Positions 6,980-9,676 of a DNA stretch of 14,630 nt are shown one piece after another; within the stretch, counting starts at the first letter, position 1; every line of letters starts with the position of its first letter. The notes beneath the pieces were generated by a model. The model saw only the letters and a program-made list of their open reading frames with translations, had not been told where the DNA came from and made no database searches. Position numbers and translations under genes: made by a program. The DNA lies in IMG/VR virus record IMGVR_UViG_3300029288_004479. The stretch is one strand, 5' to 3'. This stretch comes from a virus. Taxonomy: Duplodnaviria > Heunggongvirae > Uroviricota > Caudoviricetes.

Positions 6980-7052
6980 ACTCCCGTAGTCTAGCGGTCA
7001 AGGATGCCGGACTTTGAATCCGGCGGCGTCAGTTCGAATCTGTCCGGGAGTA
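6980..7052 (+). tRNA. tRNA-Gln(TTG)
   Basis: ACTCCCG/CGGGAGT with the archaeal Gln A1-U72 pair, CCGGA-CTTTGAA-TCCGG, one T-stem mismatch. Confidence 0.92.
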
Positions 7053-7072
7053 TCCCAAAAAAAGGGAAAAGA

Positions 7073-7145
7073 AGCCCCGTAGTGTAGCCGGTAATCATCA
7101 TAGACTCTGAATCTATGGAGGTCAGTTCGAATCTGACCGGGGCGA
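7073..7145 (+). tRNA. tRNA-Gln(CTG)
   Basis: AGCCCCG/CGGGGCG (A1.G72 mismatch), ATAGA-CTCTGAA-TCTAT, GTCAG-TTCGAAT-CTGAC. Confidence 0.88.
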
Positions 7146-7155
7146 TAGCAATCTC

Positions 7156-7164
7156 TTTTATATA
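7156..7164 (+). promoter_or_regulatory. TATA box upstream of pyrE-like gene
   Basis: TTTTATATA about 30 nt upstream of ATG 7191/7197. Confidence 0.5.
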
Positions 7165-7196
7165 CCCAGACGAACTATCTCTATTCGTGAATGTAT

Positions 7197-7717
7197 ATGG
7201 AAAATACAATTGCGGAGATGTTAATCAAGCGAAAGGCGATTGTATTTGGAGAGTTTAGTTCCCCGAATGGAGTGACCGCCGACTATATTATAAATATGAA
7301 ATCAGTAATAACTCATCCAGCAAGCCTCTCTTTGATAGCACATAAAATAATACAAGAGTTTGATTTTGATACGGTTGCCAGTGTAGTAATTAGCGGGTTA
7401 CCAATAGCAACAACAATCGCAATGATTGCTAACAAACCTTTAGCTATTATACGAAAAATTCCGGCAGATCATAATTTAAAAGAGGCAGTATCGGAGATGT
7501 CAAAGGAGAGAATGTCCTGCTTATTGAAGATGTGACGAGTAAAGGTGAATCGGCATTATATGGTGTAAAAGCGTTACGTGCATCGGGTGCAATGTCAAAT
7601 CGTGTAGTTACAATTATAAACAAAGAACAAGGTGCTGAACAGTTATTAAAATTAAATGATATTAGGTTATATGCATTATCCACAGTTAAAGATTTGAAAA
7701 GACTCGCCCTATCCTAA
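7197..7717 (+). pseudogene. pyrE: Orotate phosphoribosyltransferase-like gene split by a -1 frameshift between 7475 and ~7490
   Basis: Frame 1: AIVFGEF...DYIINMK...KPLAIIRK..ADH. The -1 frame continues IGDVKGENVLLIEDVTSKGESALYGVKALRASGA...VVTIINKEQGAEQLL. Together they give a full-length archaeal PyrE fold. Confidence 0.85.
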
Positions 7718-7823
7718 AAATATAAATATGGGGGAGATCAACATAGATAATGTCAATACCGTAACACGTATTGACACACAAAAGGACAGCGCCAACGAAA
7801 GCAGCTAAAGTCATTCGGTATCC

Positions 7824-8114
7824 CCCAGATCTTCCCATTCACTGGACAAACAAAGAAAACGGTGGTGCCTGCGGCAGCACAAATGGTGGGAATTGGTAAA
7901 CGCTTGTCGATGTGTACAGCAAGTGGTTCTGTTCCGTGAGGGCAGGAGGTTTCCCACTCAATACAAAGTACCCAGATCTTCCCATTCACTGGGCAAACAA
8001 AGAAAACGGTGGAGTCTCCTTTATAGGGGGGCAAAAAACGGTGAAGTTCCAATCACTAATTCGAGGACTGACCTCGCTTAGTGGCCCCCGTTCCGTGAGG
8101 ACGGGGGGTTCACC
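7824..8114 (+). ncRNA. Two tandem ~150-nt structured RNA-like units of unknown class
   Basis: 42-bp direct repeat (7824-7865 / 7971-8012, 1 mismatch), plus diverged but co-varying three-way junctions (7886-7957 / 8040-8114) with a GUUCC-GUGA-GG tetraloop hairpin; no credible ORF. Confidence 0.65.
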
Positions 8115-8258
8115 CAAGAAGCAAATAACAGCAACCATCGGGCATAGGTGTATCATTTTCTCTTTCCCTCATTGTCCTTATCTCAAGAGGATAAAAAGAG
8201 ATGAGAATCGTATCTGTGGGGGTGTTGCCGCACCCCTATAGGTGCAAAAAAAACATAA

Positions 8259-8332
8259 GCCAGTATAGCATAGTGGTCTAATGCGTCGGTTTTGTAAACC
8301 GAATGTCGAGAGTTCAAATCTCCCTACTGGCT
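8259..8332 (+). tRNA. tRNA-Thr(TGT)
   Basis: GCCAGTA/TACTGGC, GCAT/ATGC D stem, TCGGT-TTTGTAA-ACCGA, U73; one T-stem mismatch. Confidence 0.92.
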
Positions 8333-8336
8333 TTCT

Positions 8337-8409
8337 GCCTCTGGAGCAGTGAAGGTACTGCGCCACTTTCGTAAAGTGGAAGTAACGGGTTCGATCCCCG
8401 TCAGAGGCT
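8337..8409 (+). tRNA. tRNA-Thr(CGT), atypical core (G8, U14, A48)
   Basis: GCCTCTG/CAGAGGC, GCAG/CTGC, CCACT-TTCGTAA-AGTGG, ACGGG-TTCGATC-CCCGT, U73. Confidence 0.85.
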
Positions 8410-8413
8410 TCCA

Positions 8414-8485
8414 GTCACTGGAGCAGTATGGTATTGCGCCTGCTTGGTAAGCAGGAAGTAGTGGGTTCAATTCCCATCGGTGGCT
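8414..8485 (+). tRNA. tRNA-Thr(GGT), atypical core (G8, U14, A48)
   Basis: GTCACTG/CGGTGGC, GCAG/TTGC, CCTGC-TTGGTAA-GCAGG, GTGGG-TTCAATT-CCCAT, U73. Confidence 0.85.
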
Positions 8486-8488
8486 CTT

Positions 8489-8574
8489 CAAGTGAAAGCT
8501 TGGACGAATCCCAAACGTAAAATGGGTGGTGCGGATGTCGTGAAAACGACCGCCGTGGATATTATATATCCACG
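8489..8574 (+). other. Hairpin-dense spacer between tRNAs (possible small ncRNA or processing element)
   Basis: CAAGT-GAAA-GCTTG, CCCA..TGGG, GTCGT-GAAA-ACGAC, CGTGGATAT-TAT-ATATCCACG. Confidence 0.45.
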
Positions 8575-8586
8575 TTAAAAACAAAT

Positions 8587-8698
8587 GGGCCTATAGTGTG
8601 AGCGGCAGCACGTCAGACTTTTAAGGGGACTCTTCCCACGACCACCACGGAGTTCCCGAAGAAATCTGATTGCACGGGTTCGATTCCCGTTAGGCCCA
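8587..8698 (+). tRNA. tRNA-Lys(TTT) with a 40-nt intron (8624-8663) at position 37/38
   Basis: GGGCCTA/TAGGCCC, TCAGA..TCTGA anticodon stem. Bulge-helix-bulge: CUUU pairs with GAAG (8658-8661), bulges UA|A and AA|A, intron stem GGGGACTC/GAGTTCCC. Confidence 0.93.
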
Positions 8699-8722
8699 TT
8701 AGACCCGTATAAGACCCATATT

Positions 8723-8947
8723 ATGAAGTTATTGTTTCATCTTTTCGAAAACTCCAACGCCGCTCGTGGCAAATGTTGTTATACTTGTTGTCAAAGGAAA
8801 TGGGATTACGTCGCGCACCAATATCGTTGTGATATATTACAAAGGCAAGTGAAAGAAAACTACATATGCACAAATTTCATGTGGTGGGACGGAAAATCAA
8901 ATACAATCCATAGGGAATGGACGTATCCCCCGGCAGCAATACCATAA
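8723..8947 (+). CDS. Small Cys-rich hypothetical protein inside the tRNA array
   Basis: KCCYTCC...YRCDIL...YICTNF; fills the gap between two tRNAs. Confidence 0.55.
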   Translation: MKLLFHLFENSNAARGKCCYTCCQRKWDYVAHQYRCDILQRQVKENYICTNFMWWDGKSNTIHREWTYPPAAIP

Positions 8948-8992
8948 AAAAACACAAGTATTATAATCTTATAAGGCAATTTAATAAAAAGA

Positions 8993-9064
8993 GGGTGCGT
9001 GGTATAACGGACATTATCACAGCCTGTCACGTTGTGGACTCGCGTTCAACTCGCGGCGCATCCG
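8993..9064 (+). tRNA. tRNA-Asp(GTC)
   Basis: GGGTGCG/CGCATCC, ACAGC-CTGTCAC-GTTGT, TCGCG-TTCAACT-CGCGG, G73. Confidence 0.92.
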
Positions 9065-9085
9065 TTTTATGTATGGGATAAATTT

Positions 9086-9676
9086 ATGTTAACTTCAGAA
9101 CAGGCAAGAAAAATTGGAATTATTGGTGCAAAACTTACAGGTGAAATAAGTAAACAACGCAGATTAGTAGCAATTGCAAATTACGATAAAGATCCAAAAT
9201 TATGTCTAATCTGTGGTAAACCACTATCCTACCAACAGAAACTTAATAGAAATAAATATTGTAGTCATTCATGTGCTGCAACAAAATCAAATCAAAACAG
9301 AAAAGTAAAAAGAATGTGTTTGTTTTGTGGGAAAATACTAAATAAAGATCAAAAAAAGTTTTGCAGTCACACATGTCATGGTAATTATGTTACATCAAAA
9401 CACATGATGGATGGAGAACCATGCAGTCCAAAATCATTAAGAAGATATTTATTAGTAACAAGAGTGTATATGTGTTCAGAATGTGGATTACCAACGTGGA
9501 AAAATAAGCCAATTCCATTGGAAGTGCACCATATTGATGGGAATTGTGATAACAATAAGGAAGAAAACTTGGAATTATGGTGTAGAAACTGTCATGGTTT
9601 AACTGAAAATTTTGGAAATCGTAATAAAACAGGGAATGGAAGAAGAGTAAAAACAAGATTAAAAAAACACAATTAA
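9086..9676 (+). CDS. HNH (homing-type) endonuclease with N-terminal zinc-ribbon repeats
   Basis: CLICG..YCSHSC, CLFCG..FCSHTC, then CSECG...LEVHHIDGNCDNNKEENLELWCRNCH. The track start at 9032 lies inside tRNA-Asp; ATG 9086 is used instead. Confidence 0.92.
   Translation: MLTSEQARKIGIIGAKLTGEISKQRRLVAIANYDKDPKLCLICGKPLSYQQKLNRNKYCSHSCAATKSNQNRKVKRMCLFCGKILNKDQKKFCSHTCHGNYVTSKHMMDGEPCSPKSLRRYLLVTRVYMCSECGLPTWKNKPIPLEVHHIDGNCDNNKEENLELWCRNCHGLTENFGNRNKTGNGRRVKTRLKKHN

What the first reader, a model, noticed from the sequence alone, without database searches (positions are those of the whole stretch)
7824..8114. Unrecognised tandem ~150-nt structured RNA with compensatory changes, inside the tRNA array
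Seen, domain A (near-identical in both copies): CACUG/CGGUG stem around an A-rich loop G(A/G)CAAACAAAGAAAA, then a variable hairpin. Domain B (sequence diverged, structure kept): closing stem GUGGGAA/UUCCCAC versus GGUGAA/UUCACC; an 8-nt linker; CGCUUG/CAAGUG versus CACUAA/UUAGUG; one G; then a bulged-U hairpin UUCUG-U-UCC-GUGA-GGGCAGGA versus CCCCCG-U-UCC-GUGA-GGACGGGGG. Double compensatory changes and a retained GNRA loop indicate selection on RNA structure on the + strand. The linkers AUUGG (copy 1) and CCAAU (copy 2) are complementary and could join the copies. I cannot assign it to any family I know. Large ncRNAs and ribozymes are known beside phage tRNA arrays, so a new tRNA-associated ncRNA or processing ribozyme is plausible.
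Basis: partly seen in the sequence, partly recalled or inferred. Interest (0 to 1): 0.8.

Follow-up and report, generated by a model that had tools for sequence, protein, structure and literature searches.

The report
Twin structured RNAs in viral tRNA array
A large uncultured archaeal virus carries, inside one of its tRNA gene clusters, two back-to-back copies of a folded RNA of about 147 bases. It matches no known RNA family, its shape has clearly been preserved by selection, and its job is still unknown.

Summary
Window 7824-7970 and 7971-8117 are two tandem 147-nt units. Each has a near-identical 42-47-nt 5' block and a diverged 3' domain that keeps the same three-way junction.

- **Structure:** on four sequences (two paralogues, each in this virus and in a relative about 90% identical, L008), 98% of pair cells are paired. 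Seven pairs changed on both sides. Slid controls give 37-53% paired.
- **Strand:** G-U pairs place the RNA on the + strand.
- **Selection:** copy 1's junction domain is 98.6% identical to L008, against about 89% for the flanking gene and tRNA. Copy 2 is 77% identical, and its stems still pair in both viruses.
- **Excluded here:** any Rfam family, tRNA, BHB intron, hammerhead or HDV-like core, protein coding.
- **Distribution:** no further homologues turned up in any collection or in the relatives with tRNA arrays that I searched.

Best reading (about 0.4): a new, lineage-restricted family of tRNA-sized stable RNAs. Each sits behind an A-rich tRNA-type leader, is probably matured with the tRNAs, and may act as a protein-binding or decoy RNA. 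Nothing supports a ribozyme. Expression could not be tested. The scan had not noted this RNA on other DNA.

The parts
7721..7728 (+). TATA-like octamer TATAAATA, 4 nt after the PRTase stop codon; candidate archaeal promoter for the RNA unit (inferred)
   Evidence: Read from the sequence. The surrounding 7712-7736 is identical in L008. No transcript data.
7752..7775 (+). 8-bp hairpin GUCAAUAC/GUAUUGAC, near the expected transcript start
   Evidence: -10 kcal/mol, z = -3.7, 0 of 200 shuffles as good. Identical in L008.
7824..7970 (+). Copy 1 of the RNA unit (147 nt)
   Evidence: 190 bits to model R1. 93.9% identical to L008 overall.
7824..7865 (+). Copy 1 5' block: possible hairpin CCCAG(7824-7828)/CUGGA(7842-7846) with a 13-nt loop, then the A-rich strand 7847-7860 and GGUGG
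   Evidence: Nearly identical to 7971-8012. The C-to-A change at position 13 of the block is shared by both copies in L008, which suggests concerted evolution.
7862..7880 (+). Copy 1 variable hairpin
   Evidence: -10.5 kcal/mol, 97% of the ensemble.
7886..7957 (+). Copy 1 three-way-junction domain, 72 nt: P1 7886-7892/7951-7957, 8-nt linker 7893-7900, P2 7901-7925, P3 7927-7947 with GUGA loop
   Evidence: 71 of 72 positions are identical in L008.
7971..8117 (+). Copy 2 of the RNA unit (147 nt; the model alignment runs to 8128)
   Evidence: (74 bits to a model built from copy 1 only).
8014..8032 (+). Copy 2 variable hairpin; its sequence is replaced in L008 but it is still a hairpin
   Evidence: window -9.2 kcal/mol, L008 -9.8 kcal/mol; 55% identity.
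8040..8114 (+). Copy 2 three-way-junction domain, 75 nt: P1 8040-8045/8109-8114, linker 8046-8053, P2 8054-8083 (two-tier hairpin), P3 8085-8107 with GUGA loop
   Evidence: (z = -3.9). 77% identical to L008; the stems still pair there, with coordinated changes.
8154..8165 (+). T-rich run CATTTTCTCTTT after copy 2; a weak candidate archaeal terminator or pause (inferred)
   Evidence: Read from the sequence. Only the T4 run is kept in L008.
8210..8245 (+). 16-bp hairpin directly ahead of the A-rich leader of tRNA-Thr(UGU); a neighbour of the RNA units, not part of them
   Evidence: z = -6.1. The loop differs in L008 and the stem is kept. An analogous GGGGUG...CACCCC hairpin precedes tRNA-Thr in L010.

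Best explanation
The two units are paralogous genes for a previously undescribed structured RNA of a large archaeal virus, transcribed on the + strand.

Shown: each unit has (i) a conserved 5' block, which may form a small hairpin with a 13-nt loop and is followed by a 14-nt A-rich single strand; (ii) a hairpin of free sequence; (iii) a short A-rich linker; and (iv) a tRNA-sized domain of 72-75 nt. That domain is a three-way junction closed by a 6-7-bp stem. Its conserved parts are the nucleotides around the junction and the tip of P3 (GUUCC-GUGA-GG).

Inferred: the units are transcribed from the TATA-like box at 7721-7728, possibly running on into the tRNA-Thr genes. The junction domain sits exactly where a tRNA would sit in this array, that is, hairpin, then A-rich leader, then a stem starting with G. 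So it is probably released by the host tRNA-processing enzymes (RNase P at the 5' side of P1, a 3' trimming activity after it). It would then accumulate as a stable small RNA, like RNAC and RNAD of the phage T4 tRNA cluster.

Most speculative step: the mature RNAs act by binding a protein. They could be a decoy or scaffold for a host or viral factor that handles tRNA-like RNA. The conserved junction and P3 tip would be the recognition surface.
For: - **Real tandem paralogues:**
- **Fold kept by selection:** 98% of cells paired, 7 doubly changed pairs, slid controls 37-53%. Each junction domain folds alone into the same shape.
- **Strand:** several G-U pairs would be A-C on the minus strand.
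- **Purifying selection:** copy 1's junction domain differs at 1 of 72 positions from L008, while the PRTase gene is 89.8% and tRNA-Thr 88% identical. By my arithmetic P is about 0.002 under the background rate.
- **Copy 2 preserves its stems:** it changes 17 of 74 positions yet keeps them, including a coordinated loss of one pair in P3 and a complete sequence swap in the variable hairpin.
- **Composition:** G+C is 47-51%, like the tRNA genes and unlike the 27-38% of the coding DNA.
- **tRNA-like placement:** the leaders before P1 (CACAAAU, CAAAAAAC) resemble the leaders of tRNA-Thr, Lys and Asp in the same array and of the L010 tRNAs. Domain size is 72-75 nt with a 6-7-bp closing stem.
- **More stable than its neighbours:** both copies are retained in L008, although two of the three tRNA-Thr genes, tRNA-Lys and tRNA-Asp are not there.
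- **Precedent:** T4 RNAC and RNAD are small RNAs of still unknown function (PMC9697503). That they lie in the T4 tRNA region is from my own knowledge.
Against: - No expression or end-mapping data exist, so the transcript, the processing sites and stability are all inferred.
- The domain is not a tRNA by any detector. It has no D-arm or T-loop, so recognition by RNase P is an assumption.
- If the 5' block were only a discarded leader, its near-identity between the paralogues would need gene conversion to explain it. One shared substitution hints at that but does not prove it.
- The evidence rests on two viral lineages only. A more distant relative with a syntenic array (L010) lacks the RNA.
- No partner protein was identified.
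Confidence: 0.4

Rival explanations
1. A pair of trans-acting regulatory small RNAs. The conserved 5' block (the 13-nt loop AUCUUCCNAUUCA and/or the A-rich strand) would be a seed that pairs with host or viral RNAs. The three-way junction would be a stabilising 3' scaffold whose sequence is free to drift.
For: The 5' block is the part most conserved between the paralogues (94-98%), while the 3' domain keeps only its shape. This layout is typical of small regulatory RNAs (general knowledge).
Against: No antisense target beyond chance was found in the 14.6-kb window. The best match is a 12-mer against copy 2's linker and P2, which changes in L008. Between orthologues the 5' block of copy 1 evolves at the background rate (90.5%), while its junction domain is the constrained part (98.6%), the opposite of a seed-plus-scaffold design. 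The rest of the genome and the host could not be searched.
Confidence: 0.2
2. A cis-acting leader: tandem ligand- or protein-binding aptamers (riboswitch- or attenuator-like). They would control read-through past the T-run at 8154-8165 into the tRNA-Thr genes, perhaps in connection with the adjacent PRTase gene.
For: A three-way junction with a conserved core and a GNRA tip is typical of aptamers. Tandem aptamers are known, for example the glycine riboswitch (general knowledge). The PRTase gene and the RNA are present together in two lineages and absent together from the syntenic array of L010. A T-run follows copy 2.
Against: No riboswitch family and no PyrR binding site matched, even at E <= 10. 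The PRTase is PyrE-like, not PyrR-like. No conserved alternative pairing is shared by both copies: the GGUGGA/UUCACC alternative exists only in copy 2. Each unit carries its own 5' block upstream of the aptamer-like domain, which is not where an expression platform lies. The RNA has its own promoter-like box, separate from the PRTase gene.
Confidence: 0.1
3. A self-cleaving or processing ribozyme repeated in tandem, which cuts at unit borders to release monomers or to trim neighbouring tRNAs.
For: The tandem head-to-tail layout, with a conserved sequence at each unit start, would suit self-cleavage. HDV-like theta ribozymes are known next to phage tRNAs (PMC10879173).
Against: No ribozyme family of Rfam 15 matched at E <= 10. 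The junction strands (8, 1 and 1-3 nt: UUGGUAAA, GUUCCAAU or UCUUACAU) lack the hammerhead CUGANGA and GAA core, and copy 2's linker is not even conserved between orthologues. The fold is not a nested double pseudoknot. The copies lie about 140 nt upstream of the nearest downstream tRNA (tRNA-Thr, 8258), not abutting any tRNA.
Confidence: 0.07
4. Non-functional remnants: duplicated spacer or decayed tRNA-like sequence that still folds because it is young or by composition, with no role of its own.
For: Very narrow distribution, with only two close lineages. Other spacers in these arrays also contain hairpins.
Against: The paralogues are old enough for their 3' domains to have diverged strongly, yet 7 pairs changed on both sides and stayed paired. 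Copy 1's domain is far more conserved than the flanking coding DNA. Both copies survive in L008, where neighbouring tRNA genes were lost.
Confidence: 0.1
5. A protein-coding repeat. The period is 147 = 49 codons, and one frame reads PDLPIHW(T/A)NKENGG in both copies.
For: One frame is open across copy 2 (7912-8241). The C-to-A change in L008 is synonymous in that frame.
Against: A TAA stop in copy 1 is conserved in both viruses. L008 has indels in copy 2 that are not multiples of three and break the frame. Substitutions follow base pairing, not codon position. No BHB intron exists that could remove the stop.
Confidence: 0.02

Closest known systems
RNAC and RNAD (species 1 and 2 RNAs) of bacteriophage T4
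   Same: Small non-tRNA RNAs of a virus, of tRNA-like to twice-tRNA size, with function still unknown (PMC9697503). From my own knowledge, they are encoded with the T4 tRNA genes and matured by host tRNA-processing enzymes.
   Different: No sequence or structural similarity was tested or is expected. T4 is bacterial; here the host is archaeal. T4's two RNAs are not tandem paralogues with a shared 5' block. Expression is proven for T4 and not here.
tRNA (RF00005) and tRNA-like structures
   Same: The domain is 72-75 nt with a 6-7-bp closing stem starting with G. It sits behind an A-rich leader, in a tRNA array, on the same strand, with G+C like the tRNAs.
   Different: There is no cloverleaf. 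It has three helices rather than four, no D-arm, no T-loop (a GUGA tetraloop instead), and no conserved anticodon-like loop. The tRNA model and ARAGORN do not call it.
HDV-like theta ribozymes beside phage tRNAs (PMC10879173)
   Same: A structured RNA associated with viral tRNA genes.
   Different: Theta ribozymes are minimal double pseudoknots that abut a tRNA end. This RNA is an unknotted three-way junction with a long 5' module, about 140 nt from the nearest downstream tRNA, and it matches no HDV-type model.
phi29-type packaging RNA (pRNA)
   Same: A viral RNA of 120-170 nt built around a three-way junction.
   Different: The complementary linkers are not conserved in L008. The genomic context is a tRNA array, not a packaging module. 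No similarity was shown. I list it only as a resemblance recalled from memory.
Large ncRNAs near phage tRNAs (GOLLD, ROOL)
   Different: Those are 500-800 nt, are in Rfam and did not match. This unit is 147 nt and tandem.

Membership tests
Any Rfam 15 family | Score at or above the family's gathering threshold | tested here: not met
   only tRNAs in the window. (7650-8300, E <= 10): only chance-level hits, none over the two units except a 13-bit fragment.
tRNA | Cloverleaf with D-arm, anticodon arm, T-arm and T-loop; detected by RF00005 or ARAGORN | tested here: not met
   none at default settings, including the metazoan-mitochondrial armless mode; only inconsistent noise at relaxed thresholds.
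Archaeal BHB intron or splicing-endonuclease substrate | Helix, 3-nt bulge, 4-bp helix, 3-nt bulge, helix, conserved between relatives | tested here: not met
   My scan recovers the tRNA-Lys intron as a perfect motif (outer helix 6 bp, inner 9 bp). In the RNA region it finds only minimal 3-bp candidates, which differ between the window and L008.
Hammerhead ribozyme | Three-way junction with core strands CUGANGA, GAA and a cleavage-site H | tested here: not met
   The junction strands are UUGGUAAA, GUUCCAAU or UCUUACAU (8 nt), G (1 nt) and 1-3 nt. No Rfam hit.
HDV-like or theta ribozyme | Nested double pseudoknot (P1, P1.1, P2, P3, P4) with the catalytic C in J4/2 | tested here: not met
   The 3' strand of P1 closes the domain with nothing pairing beyond it. 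No HDV-type Rfam hit at E <= 10. Pseudoknots were not searched exhaustively.
CRISPR mini-array or solitary repeat unit | Repeats of 24-48 nt separated by unrelated spacers of about 30-70 nt | tested here: not met
   The stretches between the blocks are about 100 nt and are homologous in fold to each other.
PyrR binding site with a PyrR-type protein | Match to RF00515; adjacent PRT-fold protein of the PyrR family | tested here: not met
   No RF00515 hit. The adjacent PRTase scores as PyrE (97 bits) and its nearest solved structures are OPRTs.
Viral tRNA-cluster stable RNAs (T4 RNAC/RNAD type; a loose class, not a homology family) | Non-tRNA structured RNA gene inside a viral tRNA cluster, on the same strand | tested here: met
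Viral tRNA-cluster stable RNAs (T4 RNAC/RNAD type) | Accumulates as a discrete stable transcript matured by tRNA-processing enzymes | not testable with these tools
   No RNA run was listed.
phi29-type pRNA | Conserved intermolecular loop-loop complementarity between copies | tested here: not met
   AUUGG/CCAAU exists in the window only. In L008 copy 2's linker is UCUUACAU, leaving a different 4-bp match that is no better than chance (my own reading).

The most novel reading that the evidence does not exclude
The units are a new class of virus-encoded tRNA-shaped effector RNAs. They would be made by the host's own tRNA-maturation enzymes and used by a giant archaeal virus in one of two ways: to trap or redirect a host factor that acts on tRNA (a defence nuclease, a modification or repair enzyme, or a ribosome-associated factor), or as a new catalytic RNA. 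The invariant junction and the GUUCC-GUGA-GG tip would be the active surface.
Probability: 0.15. Interest if true: 0.8.

Novelty: new variant of a known kind. Interest (0 to 1): 0.55.

Why it matters
Large archaeal viruses and extrachromosomal elements are only now being described, and almost nothing is known about their non-coding RNAs. This is a clean candidate for a new structured RNA family. It shows paralogue and orthologue covariation, stronger conservation than the flanking genes, and a telling position inside a viral tRNA array that also carries spliced tRNAs. If it is a processed tRNA-shaped effector, it would extend an old unsolved puzzle, the stable RNAs of the T4 tRNA cluster, to archaea and give it a tractable structural handle. 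Its weaknesses are the very narrow distribution (two close lineages) and the absence of any expression data.

Tried and rejected
**Searches for more members (all negative)**
- Exact or gapped pattern scans of viral contigs gave nothing, or chance hits that the covariance model rejected.
- Scans of metagenome contigs and genome contigs gave the same result; the model rejected the hits.
- The pattern itself is valid: it hits the window and six held loci.
- blastn of 7000-9200 against phage records found only a 51-nt tRNA-like match.
- Model R2 with filters off found nothing in relatives with tRNA arrays or HNH homologues: L010, L015, L001, L036, L037, L038, L040.

**Resources not available**
- The window's own genome is not held, so the rest of the virus could not be searched.
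- No archaeal genome handle could be obtained for a host-lineage search.
- Expression: no RNA holder was listed, so no reads could be laid.

**Readings considered and dropped**
- Protein homologue routes: the PRTase has only one diverged relative. That relative, L008, supplied the orthologous RNAs.
- A programmed -1 frameshift in the PRTase gene, at a U_UUA_AAA site: rejected. Other assemblies of the same virus have one more T and an intact 173-175-aa gene.
- A TATA box inside copy 2's variable hairpin: not conserved in copy 1 or L008.
- Pairing of the 5' UUCCCA with P1's UGGGAA: broken by the C-to-A change in L008.
- A pseudoknot between J1/2 and the 3' tail: sterically implausible, and its register differs between orthologues.
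- A BHB motif formed between the copies: none.
- An antisense target in the window: none beyond chance.

Full report
**Setting.** The window comes from a large, AT-rich, virus-like archaeal element.
- It carries a histone-fold gene, an AglB gene, many small + strand ORFs and a tRNA array. Earlier notes of this scan describe the same genome in the same terms.
- The array reads Pro, Pro, Gln, Gln, then a PyrE-like phosphoribosyltransferase gene (7191-7717), the feature under study, Thr x3, Lys, Asp, and an HNH-type gene.
- tRNA-Lys (8587-8698) carries a 40-nt insert that ARAGORN missed and Rfam found.
- The same virus occurs in other assemblies, and where they cover 7701-8260 (L002, L005, L006, L007) that stretch is 100% identical.
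- One relative, L008, has a PRTase 90% identical in protein and holds the orthologous region.

**Observation.** The repeat finder gives two copies of a 47-nt block, 94% identical and 147 nt apart (7824 and 7971), plus the shared motif GTTCCGTGAGG.
- Both occur only here in the window, against about 0 expected.
- The 3' two-thirds of the units align poorly at the sequence level.
- Folded alone, each 3' part gives the same three-way junction: a 6-7-bp closing stem P1, an 8-nt linker, hairpin P2, one G, and hairpin P3 with a GUGA loop (z = -2.1 and -3.9).
- I built a covariance model from copy 1 of the window and of L008 only. It finds both copy 2 sequences at 73-74 bits and aligns them helix for helix.
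- On that four-sequence alignment, 98.1% of pair cells are standard pairs and 7 of 30 pairs changed on both sides. Sliding the 3' partners by 1-3 columns drops pairing to 37-53%. The alignment is fitted to the model, which flatters these numbers, but the gap to the slid controls is large.
- G-U pairs in P2 and P3 would be A-C on the other strand, so the RNA is on the + strand.

**Evidence from the orthologue.** Background identity between the two viruses is about 89% (PRTase gene 89.8%, tRNA-Thr 88.2%, leader 89%).
- Copy 1's junction domain differs at 1 of 72 positions (98.6%). By my arithmetic this has a probability of about 0.002 at the background rate, so it indicates purifying selection on sequence.
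- Copy 2's junction domain is only 77% identical, yet every helix survives. P3 loses one pair through coordinated changes on both strands. P2 is re-registered but still a two-tier hairpin.
- The variable hairpin of copy 2 has an entirely different sequence and still folds.
- G+C over the units is 47-51%, like the tRNA genes and unlike the 27-38% of the coding DNA.

- The domain-A stem CACUG/CGGUG never covaries and loses a pair in L008 copy 1. An overlapping hairpin CCCAG/CUGGR has one C-G to U-A change and one mismatch. Neither is established.
- The proposed AUUGG/CCAAU bridge between the copies is gone in L008, where copy 2's linker is UCUUACAU.
- The 'bulged U' is better described as a UU/N internal loop, because the opposing base is G, A or U in the four sequences.

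**What it is not.**

| Candidate | Result |
|---|---|
| Any Rfam 15 family | No family reaches threshold; nothing meaningful at E <= 10 |
| tRNA | The tRNA model and ARAGORN, including its armless-tRNA mode, do not call it |
| Splicing-endonuclease substrate | My BHB scan recovers the tRNA-Lys intron as a perfect motif, but finds nothing conserved in or around the units |
| Hammerhead or HDV-like ribozyme | The junction strands lack the hammerhead core, and the fold is not an HDV-like double pseudoknot |
| Protein-coding repeat | A stop codon in copy 1 is shared by both viruses, and indels that are not multiples of three in L008 copy 2 break the only candidate frame |
| PyrR-type RNA-binding module | The neighbouring PRTase is PyrE-like, not PyrR-like |

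**Distribution.** The family was found only in these two lineages.
- Five pattern scans of public collections found nothing, or only chance hits that the model rejects.
- The model, run with filters off, found nothing in about 120 kb from seven relatives that carry tRNA arrays or the HNH homologue.
- L010 is informative. Its array is syntenic (Pro, Pro, Gln, Gln, Thr, Lys, Asp, HNH) but lacks both the PRTase gene and the RNA. So the two appear to have entered, or been lost, together.

**Anatomy of the likely transcript (inferred).**
- A TATA-like octamer lies 4 nt after the PRTase stop codon (7721-7728), and the surrounding 7712-7736 is identical in L008.
- A strong 8-bp hairpin follows at 7752-7775.
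- The two units come next, followed by a T-rich run at 8154-8165.
- A 16-bp hairpin (8210-8245, z = -6.1) and an A-rich leader then precede tRNA-Thr.
- The short leaders before each P1 (CACAAAU, CAAAAAAC) look like the leaders of the real tRNAs in this array and in L010.
- The junction domains are 72 and 75 nt long.

**Interpretation.** I am fairly sure (about 0.85) that this is a genuine structured RNA under selection.
- Its function is open. My best reading, at about 0.4, is a pair of tRNA-sized stable RNAs that are cut out by the tRNA-processing machinery and act through protein binding. This would be the archaeal-virus counterpart of the still unexplained T4 RNAC and RNAD (PMC9697503).
- The main weakness of this reading is that the 5' block, which it treats as a leader, is the part most alike between the paralogues. 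One substitution shared by both copies in L008 hints at gene conversion.
- The alternative that the 5' block is a functional seed is the chief rival (0.2). Against it, between orthologues the junction domain of copy 1, not the 5' block, is the constrained part.
- The other rivals are a cis-acting aptamer pair (0.1), non-functional remnants (0.1), a ribozyme (0.07) and a coding repeat (0.02). None has positive evidence.

**Limits.**
- Only four sequences from two close lineages are available.
- No RNA data were listed.
- The rest of the viral genome and the host could not be searched.

Earlier notes of this scan gave context and leads: the BHB introns, a promoter rule, and another unassigned structured spacer in a second tRNA array. 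None described this RNA on other DNA.

Noticed in passing
window 7191-7717 (break near 7489): The PyrE-like phosphoribosyltransferase gene is split into two frames in this window. Other assemblies of the same virus have one more T (GCAGTTATC against GCAGTATC) and an intact 173-175-aa gene. This is therefore a 1-nt deletion or assembly error, not the programmed -1 frameshift that the nearby U_UUA_AAA site first suggested.
   Followed up: yes
window 8587-8698: tRNA-Lys(UUU) carries a 40-nt intron after position 37. The intron forms a textbook helix-bulge-helix-bulge-helix motif (outer helix 6 bp, central 4 bp, inner 9 bp). Rfam finds the tRNA; ARAGORN does not.
   Followed up: yes
L010:2605-2785: In a related virus, a tRNA-Gln(UUG) gene has an insert of about 105 nt after the anticodon loop. 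The insert folds into a long structured hairpin (z = -1.9). ARAGORN missed this gene. It may be a large tRNA intron that encodes a structured RNA.
   Followed up: partly
window 8210-8245; L008:1113-1147; L010:2990-3060: A strong hairpin GGGGUG...CACCCC (16 bp in the window, z = -6.1), followed by an A-rich leader, precedes tRNA-Thr(UGU) in all three viruses. The loops differ. It may be a conserved processing or transcription signal of these arrays.
   Followed up: partly
window 7146-8257 compared with L010:2989-3073: The PRTase gene and the two RNA units are present together in this virus and L008, and absent together from the otherwise syntenic tRNA array of L010. This suggests they were gained or lost as one module between tRNA-Gln and tRNA-Thr.
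   Followed up: partly
L008:1160-1300 compared with window 8258-9086: The close relative L008 keeps only tRNA-Thr(UGU) between the RNA units and the HNH-type gene. This window has Thr x3, Lys and Asp there. The tRNA content of the array therefore turns over faster than the two RNA units.
   Followed up: partly
window 8486-8586 compared with L010:3147-3241: The spacers before tRNA-Lys share a CCCAAACG...GGGUGG element in both viruses. This is another conserved spacer structure of unknown role.
   Followed up: no
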